Both the position numbers and the translations under genes were made by a program. The notes beneath the pieces were generated by a model, which was given only the letters and a program-made list of their open reading frames with translations, did not search any database and was not told the DNA's origin. This document shows positions 23,001-26,000 of a stretch of 64,000 nt of DNA, one piece after another (within the stretch, counting starts at the first letter, position 1; each line of letters opens with the position of its first letter). This DNA comes from Negaprion brevirostris (lineage: Eukaryota), in assembly GCA_030324005.1 (NCBI GenBank), contig JARDVH010000097.1, positions 12,982,459 through 13,046,458 on the forward strand, written 5' to 3'.

Positions 23001-26000
23001 TAATCATGTGTGAAGTGATATATTGTAAGGTCTATATAGCAACAAATTCCTAAAGATGCCCACTTACAGCATTTCCAGACTGCAGCCTCAAAGTTGCATG
23101 TGTGTCAAAGCAAATCAAAAATGAAACTGCATAATCAATCTAACTGTTGCTGCAGAAATTACTGAAGCTTGTGATGTATAGGCTGCTCACTTTATTATAC
23201 TATTGCTGATGAATGTTAACTCTTTAAAAATACTTCCACCACATTTACGCAGATTTTTTTATTCCTCATCTACAAAACCTCCTCTTAAGTAATGTTTTTT
23301 TTACCTCATCATTGAAAGTGATGGTTCCATTGACCTTCACTATGCCTATCTGCTCACTCTGAAGAGAGGGATGGCTACGTATACGAAGCCCTGCACTGTC
23401 CTTTGTCACAAATTTGCGGACCTGAGAGAAGTAATGAAACAGCAAGACAAAGATATAAGAAAAAAAGTTGTTCAGATTAAAAGCAATAGATTAAACAGGC
23501 AAAACAGTTGAGAATTAAAAAGCTGACACTGACAGAGAGAGATTTATTTGCTTCAAGGAGGAGTTACAAGGGCATTGGCTAATTTTCTGATTCTATAAAA
23601 AAAAATTTGCTCTAGGGACATAATTTTCTTGTATAGTCAAGATCTAGCAAGGCAAACCAAAACCCTTGCAGACAAAAGCAATACCTGCTTTAAGTTTCAT
23701 GTAGGAGTCATCTTCAAAATTTGTAAATTTCACATAAGCAGGAACCAAACAGTATGCAAGCATCGCAAATTATCAAAGTTTGCAAAGAGAGCACAGTTTT
23801 TAATGAGAACGTATGCATACAATTCCAAAGCACGAGTTATGATTTGACAGCCTTTATTATTGCAAACACCTGAATATAGTGCGAACACCTAAAAGTCATA
23901 TTCTGTTTACAACACCTTTACAATATGAAAACATTGCCAGTAATCTTACTGTAACAAAACTCAGTTGTGTTATTTTGTTTGCTAATTCACACAAGACACC
24001 ATACCTTGCTTGGTTGTGGCTCAGCCTTTGGTTTGACCATTTGAGATCCTGGGGGTATCATCCCTTTTGGTGGATCTTTCACTTCCACTTCTAGGCCAGC
24101 ATCTGTCAAATGAGAGCAAACATCAAACTTCAAGCTAACAGCAATACTGTGCATCAAGAAGAATCATAAAACTACAAGTCATTCTTTTAAAAATCTTAGG
24201 TATTACTTTCTGGAAAGAGGACGTGGAATTTGGAATTAAGGGTTTTAAAATAATTTAGAAAAATAAGTGATTTAATATAACGAAAGACAACACAATTGGG
24301 GCAGCACGGTGGCACAGTGGTTGGCACTGCTGCCTCTCAATGTCAATTCCAGCCTCCGGTCACTGTGTGGAGTTTGCAATCTCCCTGTGTCTGCATGGGT
24401 TTCCTCCCACAATCCAAAGATGAGTGGCTTAGATTGAATGGCCACACTAAACTAAGGGTCAGGGAGATTACTAGGGTAAATATAAGGGGTTACAGGAATA
24501 GATCCTGGGTGGGATTGTGGTCAGTGCAGACTCGATGGCCTAAATGGCCTCCTTCTGCATGTAGGGCTTCTATTCTACTACCATAGAATCAGCAGATAAT
24601 CAATACAAATGCCTTAAACTGGAAGCAATATCTTCAATGAAGAATCAGGTTTTCATGCCGTACAACACACTGCTAATTAATTAATTACTGCTGATACAGA
24701 AATGGATCCAAGATCGCGAAAGCAAAAATCTGCTTCAGATGAATGCTATGTTTTACTGGACCACACTGCGCATCAAACCTGCAAAGTTCCTAGGTGCGAA
24801 AAGTAATGCAATGATCAGGAAGATGCATAAAGAGAAGTAAAAAGCAAGCTGAAAAGAGCTTCAAGTTTATTTAAAGACCATTACAGGAACTATCTTAATT
24901 CCTGAACTATATTCCTAGAATGTCATTTGCTTGTAGCTATTAATGTAACATGTAATACATTAAAATTTACCTGTTTCGATCCCATCTATAGTGACATGGA
25001 TACTGTAAAGGCCTACAGCTCCAGGAGTCCAGTTTGCACTGTAGGTTCCATCATTATTAGCCCGAATTAACATATTTTCACTTGGCCTGAAAAAATTAAT
25101 CAGTAAAATCAATAAAGCCAATACCTCCAGTGATACTTCAGACCAATATTTTTAAGTTCATGTTTGTTGCTTTCATTTTACCTTTTAGGGGTGGGAGATG
25201 CAAATCGAAGCTCTTCAAAAGAATAGTTCTCATATGCCTGTGTGAAGAGGAATGTAACATTATAGCTACAAAGTATGTAGTAAGATGGTTCAAAATTGCT
25301 AAGGGAGCAACCTGCCTACTAAGTCAGGCCAACATGCAGGCAAAAACATGTTTACACCAACTCCCTAAACACTAACTTTCCAACTTAAACCAGACCAGAA
25401 AACCAAACCTGAAGGGATAATTACTCTATCTCACTGGAGTCAGTTATGTGGGCACAGAGCTGTTTAGGATACTTATTAATGGTTTGCGGTGAAATATTGA
25501 GAAAGTACGTAACTACCTTCATCATAGTGATTGCAGTATATCGAGCTTCTTTCACTATCATTGGTTCATAAGATGCTTCCAGTTTGGGAAATGGCAATCC
25601 ACCAAATGTCAGATCAGTACTTGAAACAGCAACTGGTGGACTGCCAGGGATACGATGCAGTTTTTTAGTGTTCTCCTGTTGCACAGACTTCTTTTGAGAA
25701 AGAGGAACAGCTTTCACCTCAACCTGTAAAGACAGAAATTACCTAGATTTACAGAGACCGTTTTTCTTTTCGTTTGATGGGTACACATATAAGTAGCATT
25801 TCAACTGTAAAAACAGCCATCTAAGAAAATGACAAATTTCAATTACTGGCTCAAAGAAATTACATGACAATGCCCGAGACTTCATCAGACTTGGCACAGT
25901 TTTCATAAGGGGGCCCCTCATTTTGCATCATGAATTCCACCAGAGGTGACTACATTGCAGTTTATATACAATGTTCTCATACTGACAGAGAATTAAACAC

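What the first reader, a model, noticed from the sequence alone, without database searches (positions are those of the whole stretch)
25182..25543. GLEBS-like Rae1-binding motif in MYCBP2, split across two exons
Seen: the spliced peptide [24 protein letters not shown]. Established: RAE1 binds PHR ligases (MYCBP2/Highwire/RPM-1) in this part of the protein, and Rae1/Gle2 binds Nup98/Nup116 through GLEBS motifs with an invariant EE pair. As recalled, Nup98 reads CITAMKEYESKSLEELRL and yeast Nup116 reads YRNFSFEELRF, nearly collinear with the peptide here. Inference: MYCBP2 engages RAE1 through a true GLEBS motif inserted into the filamin-type repeat. It would then compete with NUP98 for RAE1, linking mRNA-export or checkpoint pools of RAE1 to axonal ubiquitin signalling. 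I cannot confirm whether this has already been published.
Basis: partly seen in the sequence, partly recalled or inferred. Interest (0 to 1): 0.7.

Follow-up and report, generated by a model that had tools for sequence, protein, structure and literature searches.

The report
MYCBP2's NUP98-like RAE1-docking motif
Two exons of a shark or ray MYCBP2 gene encode a short motif that matches the RAE1-docking sequence of the nuclear-pore protein NUP98 and is kept from roundworms to vertebrates; it is predicted to sit on a flexible loop, would dock where NUP98 docks, and is likely the RAE1-binding site already published for this ubiquitin ligase.

Summary
Exons 25517-25723 and 25182-25237 (minus strand, GT-AG) join in frame, and RNA-like contigs leave exactly the 56 letters of the second exon between its neighbours. 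The peptide shares 11 of 21 residues with NUP98's GLEBS core; 0 of 2000 shuffles score as well. S, E, E and R are invariant in 40 of 40 aligned PHR orthologs, and named nematode, insect, mite, crinoid and hagfish proteins keep the EE pair. AlphaFold puts the motif in a low-confidence, roughly 84-residue insert of a confident filamin repeat. It is a shortened GLEBS: below Pfam's cut-off, 12 residues shorter than vertebrate NUP98 before the core, without the closing D-Y. A review states that PHR proteins bind RAE-1 through a small conserved motif whose mutation lowers binding (PMC4806438, passages). The two primary papers were not held, so identity with this motif is inferred (about 90%). Competition with NUP98 is plausible and untested. 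The scan earlier noted GLEBS copies in other proteins on other DNA, none in MYCBP2. Verdict: real, likely already known, interest 0.27.

The parts
27344..27486 (-). MYCBP2 exon with the first half of the filamin-type repeat (upper border approximate, within a few bases)
   Evidence: tblastn piece 27490-27341, 86% identical, and donor GT after 27344; contig piece 27342-27486 joined to exon A
25517..25723 (-). Exon A: last strand of the first filamin half, the variable linker, the conserved pre-core segment and the first half of the GLEBS-like core
   Evidence: splice signals and frame; contig pieces
25544..25609 (-). P ... Y at 25570-25568), likely the counterpart of the N-terminal segment and a short hairpin of the GLEBS
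   Evidence: Y124 of P0010 identical in all non-gap rows of A1; gap-free 44-residue match of the PHR profile to Nup98 chain 9hcj_U0, E 7.7e-4; coordinates
25517..25543 (-). First half of the core (I at 25531-25529, T, M, K)
   Evidence: Pfam PF21240 positions 16-36 match the joined core in database orthologs
25238..25516 (-). 279-nt phase-0 GT-AG intron that splits the motif
25182..25237 (-). Exon B (56 nt): second half of the core, with S at 25222-25220, the EE pair at 25216-25211 and R at 25207-25205
   Evidence: 56-letter gap between the exon A and exon C pieces in contigs of X3 and X4; S, E, E, R invariant in A1
25080..25699 (-). Genomic span that encodes the roughly 84-residue insertion between the two filamin halves (residues 79-162 of P0010); borders inferred from the model
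   Evidence: pLDDT 45-72 per ten residues in the insert against 91-96 in the flanking strands; 182 alignment columns for a 104-residue filamin domain
24971..25086 (-). Exon C: second half of the filamin-type repeat
   Evidence: Pfam Filamin positions 54-85, E 1.4e-5; contig pieces; borders

Best explanation
This is a conserved, shortened Nup98-type GLEBS-like motif in the ubiquitin ligase MYCBP2, predicted to lie on a flexible insertion of a filamin repeat, and it is likely the published RAE1-binding motif of PHR proteins, which would dock on the same face of RAE1 that NUP98 uses. Shown here: splicing, sequence match, conservation. Predicted: the exposed position in an insert that has no confident fold on its own. 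Inferred: the insert folds on the top of the RAE1 propeller, and its EE pair pairs with RAE1 R172 and R216 as NUP98 E201 and E202 do; one RAE1 then holds either NUP98 or MYCBP2, while its separate basic RNA-binding patch stays free. RAE1 thus serves as a subunit of the ligase complex, stabilising it (fly) or acting downstream of it (worm), as the review reports. Whether the two pools really compete in cells depends on affinity and location, which are unknown.
For: Pfam PF21240 matches the core in 5 of 6 vertebrate MYCBP2 proteins (E 2e-5 to 2e-4), 29 of 40 aligned PHR proteins at E<=0.01 and 5 of 12 long orthologs at E<=0.1. Four of 5 PDB hits of a 48-residue stretch are Nup98 GLEBS chains, each weak (E 0.55-0.75). 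A PHR profile finds Nup98 chains at E 7.7e-4 to 0.015. A PHR motif profile places its best match on the GLEBS in 119 of 120 NUP98 proteins by the test string (median 18.3 bits; best of 600 shuffles 3.2). Four of the 6 invariant columns of the 40-protein alignment are S, E, E, R of the motif. The core is better conserved (0.75) than either filamin half (0.59, 0.57). RAE1 R172 and R216 are kept in 30 of 31 and 31 of 31 aligned RAE1 proteins. Two AlphaFold models leave the insert outside the confident filamin fold. Published: RAE-1 binding needs a small conserved motif (PMC4806438, passages); the EE-R salt bridges define the Rae1-GLEBS contact (PMC3783196, passages).
Against: No score shown reaches Pfam's gathering cut-off of 27 bits (best 24.9 among the rows printed). 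Pfam misses 7 of 12 long orthologs, among them all 5 named nematode proteins. The D-Y that follows the core in 102 of 102 NUP98 matches is replaced, mostly by S-P (Y in 2 of 83). The pre-core spacing is 13 residues in 46 of the 54 proteins where it could be measured, against 25 in vertebrate NUP98. The models show no confident hairpin. The primary papers could not be read, so the match between the published motif and this one is inferred. Orthologs were retrieved with a query that contains the motif, which favours proteins that keep it.
Confidence: 0.85

Rival explanations
1. The motif binds RAE1 but only as a weak or partial anchor: other parts of the RAE1-binding domain (the filamin repeat, the two SH3-like domains) supply much of the contact, so NUP98 does not simply displace MYCBP2 and the two pools do not compete in practice.
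For: The motif is shorter than vertebrate NUP98's at both ends. The review says mutation 'reduces' binding. RAE-1 and RPM-1 colocalise at presynaptic terminals, away from nuclear pores.
Against: A Nup98 chain (9hcj_U0) has the same short spacing over 44 residues without a gap, so a short form occurs in a nucleoporin. The flanking filamin halves are less conserved than the core.
Confidence: 0.1
2. The motif is a GLEBS aimed mainly at the RAE1 paralog BUB3, as the Bub1/BubR1-type motifs are, which would tie MYCBP2 to the spindle checkpoint.
For: EE-centred motifs of Bub1 and BubR1 bind BUB3 (recalled). MYCBP2 has reported mitotic roles (PMC12664034, passages).
Against: No Bub1 or Mad3 chain is among the 38 PDB matches of the PHR profile at E<=10, and no such Pfam family is listed for any of 6 proteins at E<=10. 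The partner named in the passages read is RAE1.
Confidence: 0.02
3. The likeness is chance or structural: the segment is conserved because it packs on the filamin repeat or binds another partner, and RAE1 binds elsewhere.
For: Single-sequence PDB E-values are weak (0.55-0.75), and the top hit of that search is an unrelated poly(A) polymerase. Scores are under Pfam's cut-off.
Against: Reciprocal profile tests exceed all shuffles. The invariant residues are the ones known to contact RAE1. The segment has low model confidence rather than a packed position.
Confidence: 0.03

Closest known systems
RAE-1-binding domain (RBD) and its small conserved motif in PHR proteins (RPM-1, Highwire, Phr1/MYCBP2); Grill et al. 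2012 and Tian et al. 2011, seen only through the review PMC4806438 (passages)
   Same: Same protein family and same partner; a small conserved motif is required and its mutation lowers binding in vivo; domain diagrams place the RBD after the PHR domains, where this unit lies. My recollection, which no call confirms, is that the mutated motif was an S-x-E-E and that the likeness to GLEBS was noted.
   Different: None of the passages read gives the motif's letters, calls it GLEBS, places it in a filamin insertion or tests competition with NUP98.
GLEBS of NUP98 / Nup116 (Pfam PF21240; PDB 3MMY chain B)
   Same: Collinear core, 11 of 21 identical including I, T, M, K, Y, S, E, E, L, R; flexible context.
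   Different: Sits in an E3 ligase inside a filamin repeat, not among FG repeats; pre-core spacing 13 against 25 in vertebrate NUP98; no closing D-Y; below the Pfam cut-off; intron in another place (after the M-K in MYCBP2, between the two glutamates in this genome's NUP98).
Nup98 chain 9hcj_U0 (organism not given by the tool; recalled as Dictyostelium, not confirmed)
   Same: 44 residues align without a gap, including the pre-core aromatic at the same 13-residue spacing.
   Different: It keeps an acidic E-D after the core and is a nucleoporin.
Filamin/ABP280 repeat (Pfam PF00630; TRIM3 filamin domain, PDB 7o0b)
   Same: Same fold: TM-score 0.83 over the target, rmsd 2.4; Pfam 33 bits over the cut-off of 26.9 in P0010.
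   Different: Carries an insertion of about 84 residues in the middle of the repeat.

Membership tests
MYCBP2 / PHR ligases | Gene encodes the PHR-family domain series in order | tested here: met
   A named python MYCBP2 (P0015) gives 37 tblastn pieces over the window, 36 in gene order and one PHR-domain cross-match
Nup98-type GLEBS | Invariant EE pair preceded by S-x and followed by L-R | tested here: met
   25222-25205; S, E, E, R invariant in 40 of 40; 84 of 106 filamin-anchored stretches carry it, and the 22 misses are 6 tandem copies in one protein that has it once, 15 repeats of one filamin-repeat protein, and 1 ortholog with N for S
Nup98-type GLEBS | Gap-free I-T-x-M-x-x-Y segment at fixed spacing before the EE | tested here: met
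   I 63, T 54, M 54, Y or F 66 of 67 proteins with an intact upstream part, a set chosen by having I/L/M/V/C and T/S/C/A/G at the first two places; gap-free match to 3mmy_B
Nup98-type GLEBS | Pfam PF21240 score at or over the gathering cut-off (27 bits) | tested here: not met
   17.2-24.9 bits in all rows printed; only model positions 16-36 of 39 match
Nup98-type GLEBS | Long hairpin before the core (PMC3783196, passages) | tested here: inconclusive
   Spacing 13 against 25 in vertebrate NUP98 but equal to Nup98 9hcj_U0; no confident hairpin in two monomer models
Nup98-type GLEBS | D-Y continuation of the helix after EELR | tested here: not met
   D-Y in 102 of 102 NUP98 matches; in PHR proteins Y in 2 of 83 and P in 62 of 83 at the last place
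Nup98-type GLEBS | Lies in an exposed, flexible region | tested here: met
   Prediction only: low-confidence insert between confident filamin halves in a bird and an unnamed divergent ortholog
Nup98-type GLEBS | Binds the top face of Rae1/Gle2 through R172 and R216 | not testable with these tools
   Needs a binding assay or structure. Both arginines are kept in RAE1; binding through a small motif is reported
Bub1/BubR1/Mad3-type GLEBS | Sequence match to Bub1 or Mad3 GLEBS chains or families | tested here: not met
   None among 38 PDB matches or among Pfam hits at E<=10
Filamin/ABP280 repeat | Ig-like filamin fold and Pfam PF00630 match | tested here: met
   33 bits against a cut-off of 26.9 in P0010; Foldseek TM 0.83 to the TRIM3 filamin domain

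The most novel reading that the evidence does not exclude
An early animal PHR ligase captured a whole short-form Nup98 GLEBS module and set it into a filamin loop. RAE1 is therefore shared out, one-for-one and exclusively, between nuclear pores and the MYCBP2 ligase, and ligase-bound RAE1 keeps its RNA-binding patch free, giving the axon-degeneration ligase an RNA-binding or substrate-recruiting subunit whose supply depends on NUP98 levels, a link not yet in print.
Probability: 0.25. Interest if true: 0.6.

Novelty: already known. Interest (0 to 1): 0.27.

Why it matters
The RAE1-MYCBP2 link and a required small motif are already reported, so the finding mostly re-derives known biology from sequence. 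What it adds is anatomy that makes an open point testable. That predicts exclusive binding with NUP98, points to two RAE1 arginines, and offers a clean way to uncouple RAE1 from MYCBP2 in studies of synapse growth, axon degeneration and mitosis.

Tried and rejected
Co-folding of RAE1 (P0204, 28-368) with the motif (P0010, 108-160) gave no answer: score 0.01 twice, alignments not used, controls not folded. It is not evidence either way. ESM Atlas search with the motif gave no usable hit. No RNA holder on record was listed for the stretch; the runs laid are only guessed to be RNA, and 2 of 4 had no depth on the exons. A closer view of the splice joints was not obtained, so the joints rest and on the splice signals. 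Grill 2012, Tian 2011, Sharma 2014 and Ren 2010 are not held; their text and supplements bear directly on novelty and were not seen. Paper searches for a GLEBS-PHR statement: GLEBS+MYCBP2 1 paper, GLEBS+Highwire 4 held and 3 listed, GLEBS+RPM-1 0, Gle2+RPM-1 1, MYCBP2+RAE1+NUP98 6. Passages read in PMC5749825, PMC3783196, PMC11289042, PMC4707252 and PMC4806438 did not make the link; 4 of the 6 papers were seen as listings only. Two results were void through my off-by-one border for exon B: protein 4, and the peptide scores (redone). Protein 1 and protein 3 (single exons) had no Pfam hit. Four weak GLEBS matches in the own genome (E 0.9-6.7) were set aside as likely chance: two carry what reads like a repeat tail (recalled) and none has further NUP98 sequence nearby. 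The six-frame genome search did not report the MYCBP2 site itself, which the intron splits.

Full report
Setting. The window is part of a MYCBP2 gene on the minus strand. A named python MYCBP2 aligns in 37 pieces, 36 of them in gene order, from 59046 down to 395. The genome is 2.69 Gb, and its NUP98 exon is closest to shark and ray proteins, so this is most likely a cartilaginous fish.

Observation. Exon A is 25517-25723, exon B 25182-25237 and exon C 24971-25086, all with AG and GT borders. The joined frame is open and 105 of 126 residues match a bird MYCBP2, 20 of 21 in the core. Five of 6 database MYCBP2 proteins scanned carry the same joined peptide; the sixth, a tamarin gene model, has extra sequence at the joint. 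In runs X3 and X4, guessed to be RNA, one contig holds exon A and exon C pieces exactly 56 letters apart, the length of exon B; X1 and X2 did not cover the exons. Skipping exon B would shift the frame and stop at codon 71.

Is the likeness more than chance? Yes. Pfam's Nup98_GLEBS model matches positions 16-36 of 39 in 5 of 6 vertebrate proteins (E 2e-5 to 2e-4), in 29 of 40 aligned PHR proteins and in 5 of 12 long orthologs. A 48-residue stretch finds four Nup98 GLEBS chains among its 5 PDB hits, each weak, with an unrelated polymerase on top. A profile of 15 PHR fragments finds Nup98 chains at E 7.7e-4 to 0.015 and no Bub1 or Mad3 chain among 38 matches. In the other direction, a PHR motif profile lands on the GLEBS in 119 of 120 NUP98 proteins by the test string, with a median of 18.3 bits against a best of 3.2 in 600 shuffles. 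The window's own peptide scores 17.2 bits on a NUP98 profile, and 0 of 2000 shuffles reach it. The NUP98 set is almost all vertebrate, so it is not 120 independent tests.

Conservation. The bird fragment found 686 representatives at 50% clustering, of which the best 150 were listed. Forty of these and earlier hits, chosen for covering the region and for being short enough to align, have six invariant columns, four of them S, E, E and R of the motif. The core is better kept (0.75) than the filamin halves (0.59 and 0.57) or the linker (0.41). Anchoring on the second filamin half, 84 of 106 stretches have the motif upstream. The 22 misses are 6 tandem copies in one protein that has the motif once, 15 repeats of one filamin-repeat protein, and one Pristionchus ortholog with N for S but the EE intact. 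Named carriers include Caenorhabditis auriculariae, Steinernema, Bursaphelenchus, Trichinella, a butterfly, two mites, a crinoid and hagfish. [quoted passage not shown] The query contained the motif, which biases retrieval towards carriers.

Structural place. Pfam's filamin match spans residues 41-198 of the bird fragment for 72 model positions. AlphaFold gives the two filamin halves pLDDT 91-96 and the stretch between them, about 79-162, only 45-72, with a short helix on the EE. A divergent ortholog behaves alike. Foldseek matches the TRIM3 filamin domain with TM 0.83 over 182 columns for 104 residues. The motif is thus predicted to lie in an insertion and not in the fold.

How it differs from NUP98's GLEBS. 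All printed scores are under Pfam's cut-off of 27. The D-Y after the core, present in 102 of 102 NUP98 matches, is replaced, mostly by S-P. The conserved upstream aromatic lies 13 residues before the I in 46 of 54 measurable PHR proteins, against 25 in vertebrate NUP98. By the rule on membership I call it GLEBS-like and do not file it as a full member; the claim that it works like a GLEBS stands.

Mechanism. Rae1 has one GLEBS-binding face, where R216 and R172 form salt bridges with NUP98 E201 and E202, and a separate basic patch (PMC3783196, passages); Rae1 and the NUP98 GLEBS bind 1:1 (PMC7604486, passages). Both arginines are kept in the RAE1 set, which was reached through this genome's own RAE1 exons beside SPO11. 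I infer that the insert folds on that face, so that one RAE1 holds NUP98 or MYCBP2 but not both. Whether this exclusivity matters in cells is open: the sites of action differ (pore against presynaptic terminal) and the shorter motif may bind more weakly.

What is known. The review PMC4806438 (passages) says that one domain of RPM-1 and Phr1 suffices for RAE-1 binding, that a small conserved motif is required, and that mutating it lowers binding in neurons. Passages of PMC5749825, PMC9120709, PMC12664034, PMC3586504, PMC11289042 and bioRxiv 2024.11.03.621782 repeat the interaction or name an RBD. The primary papers were not held. I recall, without any call, that the motif mutated was an S-x-E-E and that its likeness to GLEBS was noted. 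I put about 90% on the published motif being this one and about 70% on the GLEBS comparison being in print. The searches found no held paper that states it in the passages read, but the library lacks the papers that matter most. One database MYCBP2 already carries the precomputed Pfam GLEBS tag.

Earlier scan notes. None concerns MYCBP2. Others report GLEBS copies in a TRIM ligase of shark relatives, in fungal Mx-like GTPases and elsewhere. I did not test them; they suggest that capture of this motif recurs.

Verdict. A real, well-conserved, shortened Nup98-type GLEBS-like motif in a filamin insertion, most likely the known RAE1-binding site of PHR ligases. Novelty: already known, with added anatomy. 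Interest 0.27.

Noticed in passing
L001:1501-1620 (G000:C97:104600006-104600101): This genome's NUP98 GLEBS is also split by a phase-0 intron, but between the two glutamates, not at the MYCBP2 position, which argues against a recent exon copy. NUP98 and MYCBP2 lie on the same contig, about 92 Mb apart.
   Followed up: partly
window 25237 (exon B start); proteins P0113, P0142, P0147, P0150, P0151, P0152, P0160: Seven unnamed, partly divergent fragments begin at the same exon border, a hint that the intron inside the motif is old. Organisms were not looked up.
   Followed up: partly
window about 21720-23430 and 11830-14510; P0010 residues 242-292 and about 378-419: Two domains that Pfam calls bacterial SH3 (PF08239) follow the filamin repeat in vertebrate and invertebrate PHR proteins and model with good confidence.
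   Followed up: no
P0014 and P0012: A tamarin gene model has extra sequence exactly at the exon A-B joint, which breaks the motif, and a bullfrog model has extra sequence after exon B. Probably gene-model errors; alternative exons are not excluded.
   Followed up: no
window 24250-24620: An intronic repeat with very high contig depth in all four runs laid, likely a SINE-type element.
   Followed up: no
window 25984-26231 and 26728-26975: Low contig depth inside the intron upstream of exon A (first stretch in 4 of 4 runs, second in 2 of 4), with stop-free frames at 26004-26177 and 26050-26223. Repeat or unannotated exon, not resolved.
   Followed up: no
L002:1501-1578 and L004:1501-1569: Weak GLEBS-like translations (21.5 and 19.9 bits) with no further NUP98 sequence around them; they read like repeat tails and are probably chance.
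   Followed up: partly
L011-L013 (G000:C121, about 13.17-13.19 Mb): RAE1 exons lie directly downstream of SPO11 on the same strand; one exon retrieves named RAE1 proteins at up to 100% identity.
   Followed up: yes
window 392-2074: One very long coding exon of MYCBP2 (about 550 codons, 68% identical to the python protein).
   Followed up: no
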